This document shows positions 4,700 to 43,842 of a stretch of DNA of 64,000 bases, one piece after another. The notes under the pieces are model-generated. The model made no database searches, had not been told where the DNA came from, and worked only from the letters and a program-made list of their open reading frames with translations. Position numbers and translations under genes: made by a program. The stretch's first letter is position 1; each line of letters starts with the position of its first letter. Origin of the DNA: Escherichia coli (lineage in GTDB: Bacteria > Pseudomonadota > Gammaproteobacteria > Enterobacterales > Enterobacteriaceae). The stretch is from assembly GCF_050920415.1 (NCBI RefSeq), contig NZ_CP169309.1, one strand, 5' to 3'.

Positions 4700-6100
4700 A
4701 TGAGCGTTGTGCCTGTAGCCGACGTACTCCAGGGCCGCGTAGCCGTTGACAGCGAAGTCACCGTGCGCGGATGGGTACGTACCCGCCGAGATTCAAAAGC
4801 TGGCATCTCCTTCCTCGCCGTTTATGACGGTTCCTGCTTTGATCCTGTACAGGCTGTCATCAATAATTCTCTGCCCAATTACAATGAAGACGTTCTGCGT
4901 CTGACCACCGGTTGCTCGGTCATTGTGACGGGTAAAGTCGTGGCATCGCCAGGCCAGGGGCAACAATTTGAAATTCAGGCCAGCAAGGTTGAAGTTGCTG
5001 GTTGGGTTGAAGATCCAGACACTTACCCGATGGCGGCAAAACGCCACAGCATTGAGTATCTGCGTGAAGTCGCTCACCTGCGTCCGCGCACAAACCTGAT
5101 TGGTGCCGTCGCGCGCGTTCGCCATACGCTGGCGCAGGCGCTGCATCGCTTCTTTAACGAGCAGGGATTCTTCTGGGTTTCAACGCCACTGATTACTGCG
5201 TCTGATACCGAAGGGGCTGGCGAAATGTTCCGCGTTTCTACGCTGGATCTGGAAAACCTGCCGCGTAACGATCAGGGCAAAGTGGATTTCGACAAAGACT
5301 TCTTTGGTAAAGAGTCTTTCCTGACCGTATCTGGCCAGTTGAACGGTGAAACCTACGCTTGCGCATTGTCCAAAATTTATACCTTCGGCCCGACTTTCCG
5401 TGCTGAAAACTCCAACACCAGCCGTCACCTGGCGGAATTCTGGATGCTGGAGCCGGAAGTGGCGTTTGCTAACCTGAACGATATCGCGGGTCTGGCTGAA
5501 GCCATGCTGAAATATGTCTTCAAAGCGGTTCTCGAAGAACGCGCTGACGACATGAAATTCTTCGCTGAACGCGTAGATAAAGATGCCGTTTCACGTCTGG
5601 AACGCTTTATTGAGGCCGATTTCGCGCAGGTGGATTACACCGACGCAGTGACCATTCTCGAAAACTGCGGCAGGAAGTTTGAAAACCCGGTTTACTGGGG
5701 CGTCGATCTCTCTTCTGAGCATGAGCGTTATCTGGCAGAAGAACACTTTAAAGCACCGGTAGTGGTTAAAAACTATCCGAAAGATATTAAAGCGTTCTAT
5801 ATGCGCCTTAACGAAGACGGTAAAACCGTTGCGGCTATGGATGTTCTGGCTCCGGGCATCGGTGAAATCATTGGTGGTTCTCAGCGTGAAGAGCGTCTGG
5901 ACGTGCTGGACGAGCGTATGCTGGAAATGGGCCTGAATAAAGAAGATTACTGGTGGTATCGCGATCTGCGTCGCTACGGTACTGTTCCGCATTCCGGTTT
6001 CGGTCTTGGTTTTGAACGCCTGATTGCTTACGTAACTGGCGTGCAAAACGTGCGTGATGTGATTCCGTTCCCACGTACTCCGCGTAACGCCAGCTTCTAA
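4700..6100 (+). CDS. asnS: Asparagine--tRNA ligase (class II aminoacyl-tRNA synthetase)
   Basis: ORF track 4655..6100; start chosen at ATG 4700 ([13 protein letters not shown]) giving 466 aa; class II motifs ([21 protein letters not shown]) visible. Confidence 0.95.
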
Positions 6101-6112
6101 TTTAGCGTCTTC

Positions 6113-6142
6113 AAGAGCCAGCACCCGCTGGCTCTTTTTTTA
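6113..6142 (+). terminator. Candidate rho-independent terminator downstream of asnS
   Basis: Seen directly: inverted repeat AGAGCCAGC-ACCC-GCTGGCTCT followed by a T-run (TTTTTTTAT) just after the asnS stop codon. Confidence 0.7.
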
Positions 6143-6490
6143 TCCTTTCTGTCAAGTTATCTGTTTGTTAAGTCAAGCAATCTATTTGCAACCCCGCCAT
6201 AACGATCATCCTGTTACGGAATATTACACTGCAACATTTGCGCACAAAAACTAATCCGCATTCTTATTGCGGATTAGTTTTTTCTTAGCTGATAGCACAA
6301 TTTTCATACTATTTTTTGGCGTTCTGGATGTCTGAACGAGGATTTAGTGTCAGGTCGATAAAGTTTCTATCAGAAACAAAATTTCCTTTTAGTTAATTTA
6401 AATATAAGGAAATCATATAAATAGATAAAAATTGCTGTAAATATCATCTCGCTTCTAAGGAAATATGACGGTGTTCACAAAGTTCCTTAA

Positions 6491-6557
6491 ATTTTACTTT
6501 TAGTTACATATTTTTTCTTTTTGAAACCAAATCTTTATCTTTGTAGCACTTTCACGG
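6491..6557 (+). promoter_or_regulatory. ompF promoter-proximal OmpR-binding region (F1-F3 boxes); candidate -10 AAAGAT around 6580; long 5' UTR at approx 6592-6701
   Basis: Sequence TTTACTTTTAGTTACATATTTTTTCTTTTTGAAACCAAATCTTTATCTTTGTAGCACTTTCACGG closely matches the ompF OmpR-box region as I recall it from the literature; sits about 150-210 bp upstream of the ompF ATG inside a ~600-bp AT-rich intergenic region. Confidence 0.6.
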
Positions 6558-6701
6558 TAGCGAAACGTTAGTTTGAATGGAAAGATGCCTGCAGACACAT
6601 AAAGACACCAAACTCTCATCAATAGTTCCGTAAATTTTTATTGACAGAACTTATTGACGGCAGTGGCAGGTGTCATAAAAAAACCATGAGGGTAATAAAT
6701 A

Positions 6702-36877: not shown

Positions 36878-38638
36878 ATGACGCAAACATTTATCCCCGG
36901 CAAAGATGCCGCTCTGGAAGATTCCATCGCTCGCTTCCAGCAAAAACTTTCAGACCTCGGTTTTCAGATTGAAGAGGCCTCCTGGCTGAATCCCGTGCCT
37001 AACGTCTGGTCTGTACATATTCGCGACAAAGAGTGCGCACTGTGTTTTACCAACGGTAAAGGCGCAACCAAAAAAGCGGCGCTGGCTTCTGCACTCGGTG
37101 AATATTTCGAGCGTCTGTCTACCAACTACTTTTTTGCTGACTTCTGGCTGGGCGAAACCATCGCCAACGGTCCATTCGTGCATTATCCCAACGAAAAATG
37201 GTTCCCACTGACCGAAAACGACGATGTACCAGAAGGGCTGCTCGATGACCGTCTGCGCGCATTTTACGATCCGGAGAATGAACTGACCGGCAGCATGCTG
37301 ATTGACCTACAATCTGGTAACGAAGATCGTGGTATTTGCGGTCTGCCGTTTACGCGCCAGTCCGACAATCAGATCGTTTATATTCCGATGAATATCATTG
37401 GTAACCTGTACGTTTCTAACGGTATGTCCGCTGGCAATACCCGAAACGAAGCACGCGTCCAGGGGTTGTCCGAAGTTTTCGAACGCTACGTGAAAAACCG
37501 GATTATTGCTGAAAGCATCAGCCTGCCAGAGATCCCGGCAGACGTGCTGGCGCGTTATCCAGCGGTGGTTGAAGCGATCGAAACACTGGAAGCGGAAGGT
37601 TTCCCGATCTTCGCTTATGATGCCTCGCTTGGCGGTCAATATCCGGTGATCTGCGTGGTACTGTTCAATCCAGCTAACGGTACCTGCTTTGCATCCTTCG
37701 GTGCACATCCTGATTTTGGCGTTGCACTGGAACGTACCGTGACCGAGTTGCTGCAAGGCCGCGGTCTGAAAGATTTGGATGTGTTTACTCCGCCAACCTT
37801 CGATGATGAAGAAGTCGCTGAACATACTAACCTCGAAACGCACTTTATCGATTCCAGCGGTTTAATCTCCTGGGACCTATTCAAGCAGGATGCTGATTAT
37901 CCGTTTGTGGACTGGAGCTTCTCAGGCACCACGGAAGAAGAGTTTGCTACGCTGATGGCTATCTTCAACAAAGAAGATAAAGAAGTTTATATTGCCGATT
38001 ACGAGCATCTGGGCGTTTATGCTTGCCGCATTATCGTGCCTGGCATGTCCGATATTTATCCGGCAGAAGATCTGTGGCTGGCGAATAACAGCATGGGCAG
38101 CCATTTACGTGAAACGATTCTTTCACTCCCAGGCAGCGAGTGGGAAAAAGAAGATTACCTGAACCTCATCGAGCAACTGGATGAAGAAGGTTTTGATGAC
38201 TTTACTCGCGTGCGTGAGCTGTTGGGTCTGGCGACCGGGTCGGATAACGGTTGGTACACCCTGCGTATCGGAGAATTAAAAGCCATGCTGGCGCTGGCTG
38301 GTGGCGATCTGGAACAGGCTCTGGTCTGGACCGAATGGACGATGGAGTTTAACTCATCAGTATTTAATCCGGAACGCGCCAACTATTATCGCTGTCTGCA
38401 AACGTTGTTATTACTGGCACAGGAAGAAGACCGCCAACCACTGCAATATCTGAATGCCTTCGTTCGTATGTATGGCGCAGATGCCGTAGAAGCCGCCAGT
38501 GCGGCAATGAGCGGTGAATCGGCGTTTTATGGCTTGCAACCCGTAGATAGCGATCTGCACGCGTTTGCTGCACATCAGTCGTTGTTGAAGGCCTACGAAA
38601 AGCTGCAGCGCGCCAAAGCAGCATTCTGGGCAAAATAA
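36878..38638 (+). CDS. ycaO: YcaO-domain protein (ATP-dependent; implicated with RimO in ribosomal protein S12 methylthiolation)
   Basis: ORF track 36845..38638; start chosen at the ATG at 36878 (MTQTFIPGKDAALEDS), giving 586 aa; function from literature recall. Confidence 0.9.
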   Translation: MTQTFIPGKDAALEDSIARFQQKLSDLGFQIEEASWLNPVPNVWSVHIRDKECALCFTNGKGATKKAALASALGEYFERLSTNYFFADFWLGETIANGPFVHYPNEKWFPLTENDDVPEGLLDDRLRAFYDPENELTGSMLIDLQSGNEDRGICGLPFTRQSDNQIVYIPMNIIGNLYVSNGMSAGNTRNEARVQGLSEVFERYVKNRIIAESISLPEIPADVLARYPAVVEAIETLEAEGFPIFAYDASLGGQYPVICVVLFNPANGTCFASFGAHPDFGVALERTVTELLQGRGLKDLDVFTPPTFDDEEVAEHTNLETHFIDSSGLISWDLFKQDADYPFVDWSFSGTTEEEFATLMAIFNKEDKEVYIADYEHLGVYACRIIVPGMSDIYPAEDLWLANNSMGSHLRETILSLPGSEWEKEDYLNLIEQLDEEGFDDFTRVRELLGLATGSDNGWYTLRIGELKAMLALAGGDLEQALVWTEWTMEFNSSVFNPERANYYRCLQTLLLLAQEEDRQPLQYLNAFVRMYGADAVEAASAAMSGESAFYGLQPVDSDLHAFAAHQSLLKAYEKLQRAKAAFWAK

Positions 38639-38969
38639 AATCAAATAGCCTACGCAATGTAGGCTTAATGATTCGTCTGAGTTATATTACGGGGCGTTTT
38701 TTTAATGCCCCGCTTTACATATATTTGCATTAATAAAATAATTGTAATTATAAAGTTAAATATCGGTAATTTGTATTTAATAAATACGATCGATATTGTT
38801 ACTTTATTCGCCTGGTGCTCCCTTTTAATTAACTGTTTTAGCGGAGGATGCGGAAAAAATTCAACTCATTTGTTAATTTTTAAAATTTATTTTTATTTGG
38901 ATAATCAAATATTTACTCCGTATTTGCATAAAAACCATGCGAGTTACGGGCCTATAAGCCAGGCGAGAT

Positions 38970-38998
38970 ATGATCTATATCAATTTCTCATCTATAAT
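38970..38998 (+). promoter_or_regulatory. Candidate FNR half-site palindrome (ATGATctatATCAA) with adjacent TATAAT -10 hexamer in the focA-pflB upstream promoter region
   Basis: Seen directly: near-consensus TTGAT-N4-ATCAA at 38970-38983 and TATAAT at 38993-38998 in a ~400-bp AT-rich region upstream of focA; the pfl operon is known to be FNR-activated from multiple promoters. The spacing to the -10 is not classical, so the exact assignment is uncertain. Confidence 0.4.
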
Positions 38999-39043
38999 GC
39001 TTTGTTAGTATCTCGTCGCCGACTTAATAAAGAGAGAGTTAGT

Positions 39044-39901
39044 GTGAAAGCTGACAACCCTTTTGATCTTTTACTTCCTGCAGCAATGGCCAAAGTGGCC
39101 GAAGAGGCAGGTGTCTATAAAGCAACGAAACATCCGCTTAAGACTTTCTATCTGGCGATTACCGCCGGTGTTTTCATCTCAATCGCATTCGTCTTCTATA
39201 TCACAGCAACCACTGGCACAGGAACAATGCCCTTCGGCATGGCAAAACTGGTTGGCGGCATTTGCTTCTCTCTGGGGCTGATTCTTTGTGTTGTCTGCGG
39301 AGCCGATCTCTTTACTTCCACAGTGTTGATTGTTGTTGCTAAGGCGAGTGGGCGCATCACCTGGGGTCAGTTGGCGAAAAACTGGCTAAATGTCTATTTT
39401 GGCAACCTGGTCGGCGCACTGCTGTTTGTACTTTTAATGTGGCTTTCCGGCGAGTATATGACCGCGAATGGTCAATGGGGACTAAACGTCCTACAAACCG
39501 CCGACCACAAAGTGCACCATACTTTTATTGAGGCCGTCTGTCTTGGTATCCTGGCAAACCTGATGGTATGTCTGGCAGTATGGATGAGTTATTCTGGCCG
39601 CAGCCTGATGGATAAAGCGTTCATTATGGTGCTGCCGGTCGCGATGTTTGTTGCCAGCGGTTTTGAGCACAGTATCGCAAACATGTTTATGATCCCGATG
39701 GGTATTGTAATCCGCGACTTCGCATCTCCGGAATTCTGGACCGCTGTCGGTTCTGCACCGGAAAATTTTTCTCACCTGACCGTGATGAACTTCATCACTG
39801 ATAACCTGATTCCGGTTACGATCGGTAATATTATCGGCGGTGGTTTGTTGGTTGGGTTGACATACTGGGTCATTTACCTGCGTGAAAACGATCACCATTA
39901 A
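39044..39901 (+). CDS. focA: Formate channel FocA (formate-nitrite transporter family)
   Basis: ORF track 38705..39901 extends far upstream; start chosen at GTG 39044 (VKADNPFDLLLPAAMAK), giving 285 aa; FNT-family polytopic membrane protein. Confidence 0.88.
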   Translation: MKADNPFDLLLPAAMAKVAEEAGVYKATKHPLKTFYLAITAGVFISIAFVFYITATTGTGTMPFGMAKLVGGICFSLGLILCVVCGADLFTSTVLIVVAKASGRITWGQLAKNWLNVYFGNLVGALLFVLLMWLSGEYMTANGQWGLNVLQTADHKVHHTFIEAVCLGILANLMVCLAVWMSYSGRSLMDKAFIMVLPVAMFVASGFEHSIANMFMIPMGIVIRDFASPEFWTAVGSAPENFSHLTVMNFITDNLIPVTIGNIIGGGLLVGLTYWVIYLRENDHH

Positions 39902-43251: not shown

Positions 43252-43842
43252 TTATAGTGCATCTACCATATCCCGTACCTGAGATAATAACGACTGATAA
43301 TAGCTCGCGTGAAGTTCTTCCCCATCGAATACCACTGTATTACACAAGAAAGTGACATCGGCATCTTCAATACCAAGATAACTGCACATATTTATCAAAT
43401 AATCGCTTATATTTTTTTCCCAGCCTATCTGGACAAATGATTCTTTGTCTCCTCCAACCAGCGCCACCCAACGAACTTTATTGAATGGTAATTTGTGCCC
43501 ATCTCCATAAGCCAGCCCATTATTCCATACTCTGTCAATATATCCTTTTAGCATTGCTGGGAAGCTGTACCACCAGAGAGGAAAAACCACCACTAACGTG
43601 TCATGTTCAAGCAGCTCTGAATAAAGCTGATGAACCTCTGGAGAATAACGTTTATCCATATTCTTCCAGTCTGGTTCATCTTCCGGCGTCATCACCGGGT
43701 TGAAATTACGCCGATATAAATCGAGTTCCGTCACCTGTATTTTCCGCTCCATTGCCCGCTGATGGATCGCATCAGCAATATGTGCGGTCAATGAATCATG
43801 ACGAGGATGGGCCCATACCAAATAAATACGTTCAGACTGCAT
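43252..43842 (-). CDS. ycaK: Flavodoxin-like-fold NAD(P)H oxidoreductase family protein YcaK
   Basis: 196-aa ORF; N-terminal pattern IYLVWAHPRHDSLT resembles NAD(P)H:quinone oxidoreductase / KefF-MdaB-like proteins (inference). Confidence 0.8.
   Translation of the reverse strand: MQSERIYLVWAHPRHDSLTAHIADAIHQRAMERKIQVTELDLYRRNFNPVMTPEDEPDWKNMDKRYSPEVHQLYSELLEHDTLVVVFPLWWYSFPAMLKGYIDRVWNNGLAYGDGHKLPFNKVRWVALVGGDKESFVQIGWEKNISDYLINMCSYLGIEDADVTFLCNTVVFDGEELHASYYQSLLSQVRDMVDAL

What the first reader, a model, noticed from the sequence alone, without database searches (positions are those of the whole stretch)
38639..39043. AT-rich 400-bp focA upstream region with FNR-like palindrome, and GTG start for focA
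The long ORF in the track (38705-39901, 398 aa) is an artefact of an open frame running through the promoter. The real gene most plausibly begins at the GTG at 39044. The upstream region is strongly AT-rich, with poly-A/T tracts suggestive of intrinsic curvature, and contains a near-consensus FNR site plus a perfect TATAAT, consistent with the multi-promoter anaerobic control known for this operon. A non-ATG start on a channel gene may tune focA:pflB stoichiometry.
Basis: partly seen in the sequence, partly recalled or inferred. Interest (0 to 1): 0.25.

Follow-up and report, generated by a model that had tools for sequence, protein, structure and literature searches.

The report
E. coli focA promoter and GTG start

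Summary
Window 38639-39043 is the 405-bp ycaO-focA intergenic region of E. coli (100% identical to sequenced chromosomes).
- GC is 31%, against 51% for the whole window.
- ATGATCTATATCAA lies at 38970-38983.
- TATAAT lies at 38993-38998.
- GTG lies at 39044.

The 398-aa ORF is an artefact. A strain-specific TGA-to-TGG change at 38815 opens the frame. K-12 has a stop there, and other genera have in-frame stops only 15-39 nt upstream of the GTG. The GTG is invariant in 79/79 Enterobacteriaceae loci.

Published work settles most of the rest:
- FNR ChIP places FNR on exactly this 14-mer.
- Published start sites lie at -27, -37 and -348.
- ArcA ChIP maps a site at 38731-38784.
- Changing GUG to AUG raises FocA about 10-fold.
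- A 2025 preprint describes an upstream 30S-binding site at -213.

Two details need correcting. The perfect TATAAT fits the -37 start, not the FNR class II promoter, whose -10 is TAGTAT at 39006-39011. The A/T tracts show no helical phasing, so intrinsic curvature is not supported.

Verdict: real, correctly read, already known, low interest.

The parts
38647..38665 (+). Hairpin just after the ycaO stop codon (AGCCTAC-gcaat-GTAGGCT)
   Evidence: Fold of 38630-38730 gives z = -5.28 against shuffles. Flagged as terminator-like on the minus strand.
38683..38688 (+). TATATT, inferred -10 hexamer of the distal focA promoter. The published start at -348 is window 38696.
   Evidence: The preprint's supplementary table gives TSS 954,814 and a 348-nt 5'UTR. 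An anaerobically increased sigma70 ChIP peak at 954,032 (U00096.2) maps to about window 38701. The hexamer is at least 90% conserved across 77 sequences. Assigning it as the -10 is my inference from spacing.
38690..38712 (+). GC-rich 9-bp hairpin (CGGGGCGUU/AAUGCCCCG), a likely ycaO terminator. It overlaps the distal start site.
   Evidence: fold. Its 5' arm is conserved. The terminator role is inferred.
38731..38784 (+). ArcA multi-direct-repeat binding site
   Evidence: Park et al. 2013 supplement gives ChIP peak focA2 at 953,962-953,967 and a predicted site at 953,949-954,002. Its printed sequence equals the window sequence except for one SNP. The core 38743-38762 is conserved.
38813..38815 (+). 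TGG codon in the focA frame. It is TGA in K-12, and this SNP creates the 398-aa ORF.
   Evidence: At most 766 of 5426 E. coli genomes share a 28-nt word spanning this allele.
38831..38865 (+). Upstream 30S-binding site (uRBS, 5' end at -213) with strong SD-like GGAGGA at 38843-38848. The ATG at 38848 directly abuts the SD-like motif, which is too close to serve as a start.
   Evidence: Preprint 10.1101/2025.04.04.647229 reports 30S-seq, tRNAi-independent toeprint, and about a 10-fold lower focA-lacZ in the uSD mutant. Sequence. A 5-nt SD lies near -200 in 32/76 loci. The 3' limit of the site is approximate.
38903..38915 (+). IHF consensus match AATCAAATATTTA
   Evidence: Exact WATCAANNNNTTR match. 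It is not beyond chance on its own (3 found against 2.5 expected). It is present near the same position (-141 or -142) in 55/76 loci with a variable N4. IHF activation of pfl is cited. Binding at this exact site is not shown here.
38970..38983 (+). FNR binding site ATGATCTATATCAA, centred 40.5 nt upstream of the -27 start site
   Evidence: It is identical to the ChIP-bound site TTGATATAGATCAT at 953,750 in Myers et al. 2013. Table 1 of that paper gives position -40.5 and anaerobic activation. Both half-sites are kept in 74/76 loci (two change one base of the right half-site) with a variable spacer.
38993..38998 (+). Perfect TATAAT. It fits as the -10 of the overlapping promoter whose published start is at -37 (window 39007).
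   Evidence: Sequence. Exact in 75/76 loci. The TSS at -37 is listed in the preprint's Extended Data Fig. 8 legend. The pairing is inferred from spacing.
39006..39011 (+). TAGTAT, -10 of the FNR class II promoter (P6). The published start at -27 is window 39017.
   Evidence: FNR site at -40.5. TSS at -27. Exact in 76/76 loci. The pairing is inferred from spacing.
39032..39038 (+). GAGAGAG, a weak overlapping Shine-Dalgarno 5 nt before the GTG
   Evidence: Invariant in 79/79 loci. The preprint says SD_TIR mutations abolish focA-lacZ expression and tRNAi-dependent 30S binding. No SD of 4 nt or more is listed in NAR 2022.
39042..39047 (+). GTGTGA: an out-of-frame GTG at 39042 followed at once by TGA, overlapping the true start
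   Evidence: Sequence. focA is listed as a gtGTG gene. The arrangement is described in the preprint supplement. Invariant in 79/79 loci.
39044..39901 (+). focA coding sequence, GTG start, 285 aa
   Evidence: RefSeq annotation. Identical over 285 residues to PDB 3kcu FocA. GTG in 79/79 loci.

Best explanation
The region is the ycaO-focA intergenic control region of E. coli, in front of the anaerobically induced focA-pflB operon.

Transcription starts at three published sites.
- A distal promoter starts at about 38696 (-348).
- A promoter served by the perfect TATAAT starts at 39007 (-37).
- An overlapping promoter served by TAGTAT starts at 39017 (-27).

FNR binds ATGATCTATATCAA, centred 40.5 nt upstream of the -27 start. 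That is class II activating geometry. The same site covers the -35/spacer region of the TATAAT promoter. ArcA binds a multi-repeat site at 38731-38784. An IHF consensus sits between the distal and proximal promoters at 38903-38915.

focA is translated from the GTG at 39044. That start is preceded only by a weak GAGAGAG Shine-Dalgarno and overlapped by an out-of-frame GTG-TGA. This poor initiation region keeps FocA much scarcer than PflB. On long transcripts a strong SD-like GGAGGA about 200 nt upstream (38843-38848) recruits 30S subunits and boosts expression.

The 398-aa ORF is an accident. It arises from an AT-rich frame without stops plus a strain-specific TGA-to-TGG change.

Basis of each step:
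- Shown here: identity, coordinates, conservation, in-frame stops, and geometry.
- From the literature: FNR and ArcA occupancy, the start sites, the GUG-to-AUG effect, and 30S binding.
- Inferred: which -10 hexamer serves which start, the exact IHF site, and the terminator role of the hairpins.
For: - **Identity.** The region is 100% identical to E. coli chromosomes, with focA annotated at 39044-39901.
- **Start codon.** GTG is present in 79/79 Enterobacteriaceae loci, within the invariant AGAGAGAGTTAGTGTGAAAGCTGACAAC. In-frame stops lie at -15 (Mangrovibacter), -18 (Kluyvera) and -39 (Klebsiella, Raoultella, Phytobacter, Kosakonia).
- **ORF artefact.** K-12 has TGA at -231 where the window has TGG.
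- **N-terminus.** The Vibrio FocA structure 3kly aligns from residue 4, so the N-terminus is coding. Deleting K2-P31 abolishes channel function.
- **FNR.** The exact 14-mer is listed as ChIP-bound. The operon is anaerobically activated, and the site is at -40.5.
- **RNA polymerase.** Two anaerobically increased sigma70 peaks lie near -6 and -343.
- **Start sites.** Published TSSs are at -27, -37 and -348.
- **ArcA.** The ChIP peak and site sequence match 38731-38784.
- **Translation.** GUG to AUG gives about 10-fold more FocA. The uSD mutation lowers expression about 10-fold, SD_TIR mutation abolishes it, and the toeprint at the start needs tRNAi.
- **Conservation.** It peaks over 38945-39069. 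TATAAT is exact in 75/76 loci and TAGTAT in 76/76. Both FNR half-sites are kept in 74/76 with a variable spacer.
Against: - No transcript or protein data were generated on this strain. All functional evidence comes from K-12-type strains.
- The second FNR site counted by Myers et al. could not be located by consensus.
- The ArcA site lies downstream of the distal start. That is unusual for an activator, and Park et al. call its mechanism unknown.
- The simple promoter scan recognised none of the three promoters. This is expected for activator-dependent promoters with weak -35 elements, but it is not positive support.
- PDB sequences follow the annotation, so they are not independent evidence for the start.
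- The 30S-seq work is an unreviewed preprint.
Confidence: 0.95

Rival explanations
1. An upstream in-frame start is used. This strain would then make an N-terminally extended FocA of up to 398 aa, starting from ATG 38705 or an in-frame TTG.
For: The frame is open from 38705 in this strain. ATG 38705 lies 9 nt downstream of the distal start at 38696, so it is present on the long transcript.
Against: - The frame is open only because of one SNP. K-12 has TGA at -231 and another E. coli strain has TAG at -147.
- Other genera have stops at -15 to -39.
- The ATG at 38705 is not conserved.
- There is no SD in front of it.
- The proximal transcripts (-27, -37) do not contain any upstream start.
- The predicted extension is an Ile/Leu/Asn/Tyr-rich translation of AT-rich DNA.
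Confidence: 0.01
2. Translation really starts downstream at Met15 (ATG 39086), and the GTG is only an annotation convention.
For: ATG is the commoner start codon. The GTG has only a weak GAG-type SD.
Against: - Residues 2-14 are conserved as protein. The Vibrio FocA structure aligns from residue 4.
- The cytoplasmic N-terminal domain (K2-P31) is needed for function.
- Changing the GUG to AUG raises FocA about 10-fold.
- SD_TIR mutations abolish expression, and a tRNAi-dependent toeprint sits at the start region.
Confidence: 0.01
3. The AT-richness marks foreign or H-NS-silenced DNA, or intrinsically curved DNA, rather than a packed regulatory region.
For: GC is 31% against a 51% background. 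There are nine A/T tracts.
Against: - The region is syntenic and alignable across 77 Enterobacteriaceae sequences, with conserved blocks that coincide with known sites.
- There is no 10-11 bp AA/TT periodicity above shuffles.
- FNR occupies the site in wild type as well as in the hns/stpA mutant (file 7).
Confidence: 0.03
4. The intergenic region encodes its own product, either a small RNA or a small protein such as the 11-codon ORF starting at ATG 38848.
For: A strong SD-like GGAGGA immediately precedes ATG 38848. 30S subunits bind there.
Against: - The SD-like motif directly abuts the ATG, which is too close for initiation.
- 30S binding is tRNAi-independent and 70S coverage is poor.
- The ATG is not conserved.
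- No Rfam family matches. The only hit has E = 0.58 and is spurious.
Confidence: 0.02

Closest known systems
E. coli K-12 focA-pflB (pfl) operon promoter-regulatory region. The names P6, P6A and P7 come from the Sawers laboratory and are recalled from memory. Start sites at -27, -37 and -348.
   Same: It is the same locus. Only 3 differences from MG1655 fall in the 405-bp intergenic region. The FNR 14-mer is identical. The ArcA site matches except for one SNP (the A/G difference at 38754). The -10 hexamers, SD, GTGTGA and intergenic length are the same.
   Different: Three SNPs: 38674, 38754 and 38815. The last converts an in-frame TGA to TGG, which is why a 398-aa ORF appears in this strain.
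Class II FNR-activated promoters (site centred near -41.5), such as dmsA, narG and yfiD
   Same: The half-sites ATGAT/ATCAA are centred at -40.5 relative to the -27 start. The -35 is weak, and sigma70 occupancy and expression rise anaerobically.
   Different: A second promoter with a perfect TATAAT overlaps it, 10 nt upstream. FNR sits over the -35/spacer region of that promoter. ArcA, IHF and a distal promoter are also involved.
Upstream ribosome binding sites and standby sites (uRBS of the 30S-seq preprint, tisB standby site)
   Same: A strong SD-like motif lies far upstream in the 5'UTR. It binds 30S without initiator tRNA and raises expression of a gene with a poor initiation region.
   Different: It is about 200 nt from the start codon, among the most distant reported. 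It is absent from the proximal transcripts and from several genera.

Membership tests
focA (formate-nitrite transporter family) gene with GUG start | The product is a full-length FNT channel homologous to solved FocA structures | tested here: met
   285/285 residues match PDB 3kcu. Salmonella and Vibrio FocA, NirC and HSC also hit.
focA (formate-nitrite transporter family) gene with GUG start | The start codon is conserved, and upstream in-frame starts are excluded in relatives | tested here: met
   GTG in 79/79 loci. In-frame stops lie at -15, -18 and -39 in several genera.
focA (formate-nitrite transporter family) gene with GUG start | Initiation at this codon is shown experimentally | not testable with these tools
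   Literature only. The GUG-to-AUG strain makes about 10-fold more FocA. A tRNAi-dependent toeprint and SD_TIR mutants are reported.
Class II FNR-activated promoter | A TTGAT-N4-ATCAA site | tested here: met
   ATGATCTATATCAA, 1 mismatch. Both half-sites are kept in 74/76 loci with a variable spacer.
Class II FNR-activated promoter | The site is centred about 41.5 nt upstream of the transcription start | tested here: met
   The centre at 38976.5 against the published TSS at -27 (window 39017) gives -40.5. The TSS itself comes from the literature.
Class II FNR-activated promoter | FNR occupancy and FNR-dependent expression in vivo | not testable with these tools
   Literature: a ChIP-seq peak at 953,741-953,746, and the focA and pflB expression-ratio entries of 0.145 and 0.212 in supplementary file 12. 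The column header of that file was not read, so the comparison (taken to be fnr mutant over wild type) is assumed.
Class II FNR-activated promoter, with the perfect TATAAT as its -10 | The -10 hexamer ends about 6-8 nt upstream of the FNR-dependent start | tested here: not met
   TATAAT ends at 38998, 19 nt before the -27 start. FNR would be centred near -28.5 to -30.5 for a start served by it. TAGTAT at 39006-39011 fits instead.
Intrinsically curved DNA (phased A-tracts) | A/T tracts repeat in phase with the helix (about 10-11 bp) | tested here: not met
   AA/TT periodicity at 10-11 bp equals the shuffle mean. 38-42% of shuffles do as well.
Upstream ribosome binding site (uRBS/standby) | A strong SD-like motif lies in the 5'UTR far from the start, without a usable start codon | tested here: met
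   GGAGGA at 38843-38848, about 200 nt upstream. The only nearby ATG directly abuts the SD-like motif.
Upstream ribosome binding site (uRBS/standby) | The motif is conserved in relatives | tested here: inconclusive
   A 5-nt SD lies near -200 in 32/76 loci, and a 4-nt motif in many more. None is found in Klebsiella/Raoultella, Kluyvera or Mangrovibacter.
Upstream ribosome binding site (uRBS/standby) | 30S binding, and an effect on expression | not testable with these tools
   Preprint only.
IHF binding site | A WATCAANNNNTTR match kept at a conserved position | tested here: met
   Exact match at 38903-38915. It lies at -141 or -142 in 55/76 loci with a variable N4. Binding at this site is not shown here.

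The most novel reading that the evidence does not exclude
The invariant GTGTGA, an out-of-frame GUG followed at once by UGA and overlapping the true GUG, may be a selected start-stop decoy that throttles FocA synthesis. The nucleotide-level invariance of the leader and the first 8 codons, synonymous sites included, would belong to the same device. On this reading the arrangement is not just a weak start codon. The preprint notes the overlap but did not test it.
Probability: 0.12. Interest if true: 0.35.

Novelty: already known. Interest (0 to 1): 0.07.

Why it matters
The finding mainly shows that a tool-free reading of raw sequence correctly rejected a spurious 398-aa ORF. It also recovered a non-ATG start and an FNR site. 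Biologically the region is a textbook case of anaerobic control: FNR, ArcA, IHF and several promoters, plus translational throttling of a channel co-transcribed with a very abundant enzyme. Nothing here changes that picture. For annotation, the lesson is that a single SNP in an AT-rich leader can create a long false ORF in some strains.

Tried and rejected
- **Original papers not held.** I could not read Sawers & Suppmann 1992 (PMC206030), Beyer et al. 2013 (PMC3624525) or the dRNA-seq start-site paper (PMC4288677). The names P6, P6A and P7, and the details of Kaiser & Sawers 1997 and Suppmann & Sawers 1994, therefore rest on memory plus secondary citations.
- **Literature searches.** A four-term search (focA, GUG, translation, pflB) found nothing. 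One hit (PMC10100776) matched 'focal', not focA.
- **Second FNR site.** I looked for the second site counted by Myers et al. No other match with at most 2 mismatches lies in the intergenic region. The only nearby one (38565-38578) is inside ycaO and shows codon-type conservation only.
- **Promoter scan.** It found only TTTACA-17-AATAAT at 38714-38742, fewer sites than in shuffles (1 against 3.4). It missed all three published promoters.
- **Curvature test.** Negative.
- **Rfam.** Nothing real.
- **Leader structure.** The -27 leader plus the first codons is less structured than shuffles (z = +1.19). No sequestering hairpin explains the weak start.

Full report
**What is there**

The window is E. 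coli chromosome. A 701-bp query across the finding matches 5425 of 5426 complete E. coli genomes, the best at 100% identity. RefSeq annotates ycaO ending at window 38638 and focA at 39044-39901. MG1655 has the same 405-bp intergenic length.

- the mechanical ORF 38705-39901, 398 aa;
- ATGATCTATATCAA at 38970-38983;
- TATAAT at 38993-38998;
- GTG at 39044.

The intergenic region is 31.1% GC against 50.8% for the window. It sits in the lowest 0.08% of 405-bp windows. The only comparable trough is the asnS-ompF intergenic region.

**The start codon**

I fetched 80 loci from other Enterobacteriaceae species whose FocA is 89-100% identical.

- In all 79 loci where the 5' end is present, the codon before KADNPF is GTG. 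The string AGAGAGAGTTAGTGTGAAAGCTGACAAC is invariant.
- The reading frame upstream is closed very close to the GTG in several genera. The stop lies at -15 in Mangrovibacter and at -18 in Kluyvera. It lies at -39 in Klebsiella, Raoultella, Phytobacter and Kosakonia. No upstream in-frame start is possible there.
- Within E. coli, K-12 has TGA at -231 where the window has TGG, through a single SNP at 38815. Another strain has TAG at -147.
- At most 766 of 5426 genomes share a 28-nt word spanning the G allele, O157:H7 among them.

So the 398-aa ORF is a strain-specific accident in an AT-rich leader.

A downstream start at Met15 is also excluded:
- Residues 2-14 are conserved as protein, and Vibrio FocA aligns from residue 4.
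- The N-terminal domain K2-P31 is required for function.
- Converting the GUG to AUG (strain REK702, from Suppmann & Sawers 1994) gives about 10-fold more FocA.
- A 2025 preprint reports a tRNAi-dependent 30S toeprint at the start. Mutating the weak SD abolishes expression.

**Fine structure of the start**

The annotated GTG is the second of GTGTG. The first GTG (39042) is out of frame and is followed at once by TGA. focA is listed among gtGTG genes without an SD of 4 nt or more. The preprint supplement describes three overlapping GAG motifs and the aborted out-of-frame start. The -27 leader is not more structured than shuffles, with z = +1.19.

**Transcription control**

- **FNR.** The 14-mer is exactly the FNR site that Myers et al. 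2013 list as ChIP-bound: TTGATATAGATCAT at 953,750, the reverse complement. Coordinates map linearly because the intergenic lengths are equal. Their Table 1 gives the top site at -40.5, with anaerobic increases in sigma70 occupancy and in expression.
- **Start sites.** Published focA start sites are at -27, -37 and -348. These are window 39017, 39007 and 38696.
- **Geometry.** The FNR centre at 38976.5 is 40.5 nt from 39017. The -10 of the FNR class II promoter is therefore TAGTAT at 39006-39011. The perfect TATAAT ends 19 nt before that start and fits the -37 start instead. For that promoter, FNR sits over the -35/spacer region. This matches the title of Kaiser & Sawers 1997, 'Overlapping promoters modulate Fnr- and ArcA-dependent...' (citation confirmed; details from memory).
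- **Distal promoter.** Two anaerobically increased sigma70 ChIP peaks map near -6 and -343. The distal one agrees with the -348 start. A conserved TATATT at 38683-38688 is well placed as its -10 (the pairing is inferred).
- **ArcA.** Park et al. 2013 give an ArcA ChIP peak and a multi-repeat site. Its printed sequence is window 38731-38784 apart from the A/G SNP at 38754.
- **IHF.** An exact consensus match lies at 38903-38915. It is not beyond chance on its own. It sits at -141 or -142 in 55 of 76 loci with a variable N4.
- **Background.** Activation of pfl by FNR, ArcAB and IHF, and repression by NarL, are stated with references.

**Conservation**

An alignment of 77 distinct upstream sequences shows near-invariance from about 38945 to 39069. 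TATAAT is exact in 75/76 loci and TAGTAT in 76/76. Both FNR half-sites are kept in 74/76 loci, and the other two change one base of the right half-site. The 4-nt spacer takes at least six forms. That is the footprint expected of a real binding site.

The motif count alone is not significant: 5 matches against 2.6 expected.

The first 8 codons have invariant third positions. Only 16.8% of third positions are that conserved over the whole gene.

**Upstream ribosome binding site**

The preprint identifies a 30S-binding site with its 5' end at -213 (window 38831) and a strong upstream SD. Mutating that SD lowers focA-lacZ about 10-fold. In the window this is GGAGGA at 38843-38848. The adjacent ATG directly abuts the SD-like motif, is too close to be used, and is not conserved. 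A 5-nt SD lies near -200 in 32/76 loci and weaker versions in many more. None is found in Klebsiella/Raoultella, Kluyvera or Mangrovibacter.

**What did not hold**

- Nine A/T tracts are present, but AA/TT periodicity at 10-11 bp equals the shuffle mean. Intrinsic curvature by phased A-tracts is not supported. Any bend is more likely protein-induced by IHF.
- The simple promoter scan found none of the published promoters.
- Rfam gave nothing real.
- The second FNR site counted by Myers et al. was not located.

**Verdict**

The region is the classical focA-pflB control region, so the finding is already known and of low interest.

The one untested point is whether the invariant GTGTGA start-stop overlap and the synonymous-site invariance of codons 2-8 form a selected throttling device.

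Noticed in passing
window 39044-39067: The first 8 focA codons have third positions at least 95% conserved (six of them invariant) across 80 Enterobacteriaceae sequences. Only 16.8% of third positions gene-wide are that conserved. The block is contiguous with the invariant leader 38985-39043 and suggests an RNA- or DNA-level constraint beyond the protein.
   Followed up: partly
window 38815: A single SNP (G here, A in K-12) turns an in-frame TGA into TGG and creates the 398-aa ORF. At most 766 of 5426 complete E. coli genomes, O157:H7 among them, share the surrounding 28-nt word.
   Followed up: yes
window 38647-38712: Two stable hairpins follow the ycaO stop codon (z = -5.28 for 38630-38730). 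The GC-rich second one (38690-38712) overlaps the published distal focA start at 38696, so a terminator and a promoter appear to share sequence.
   Followed up: partly
window 38714-38742: This is the best sigma70 consensus match in the region (TTTACA-17-AATAAT, 10/12). It overlaps the edge of the ArcA site. No start site for it appeared in the sources read.
   Followed up: no
L015-L019, L032, L038, L039, L047, L049, L074, L075, L078 (about -210 to -190 from focA): The upstream SD-like motif that binds 30S in E. coli is missing in Klebsiella/Raoultella, Kluyvera and Mangrovibacter. The proximal promoter and start region are unchanged in those genera.
   Followed up: partly
window about 6100-6700: This is the only other stretch of the window as AT-rich as the focA leader. 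It is the asnS-ompF intergenic region, the long ompF regulatory region.
   Followed up: partly
L051 (CACSKA010000002.1): An assembly labelled Chryseobacterium sp. 18061 carries an enterobacterial focA locus (91% protein identity, identical leader). The assembly is probably mislabelled or contaminated.
   Followed up: no
window 43252-43842, compared with L083 43252-45177: The best-matching reference strain has an IS2 inserted in ycaK. The window has an intact 196-aa ORF there, so the window is not from that strain.
   Followed up: no
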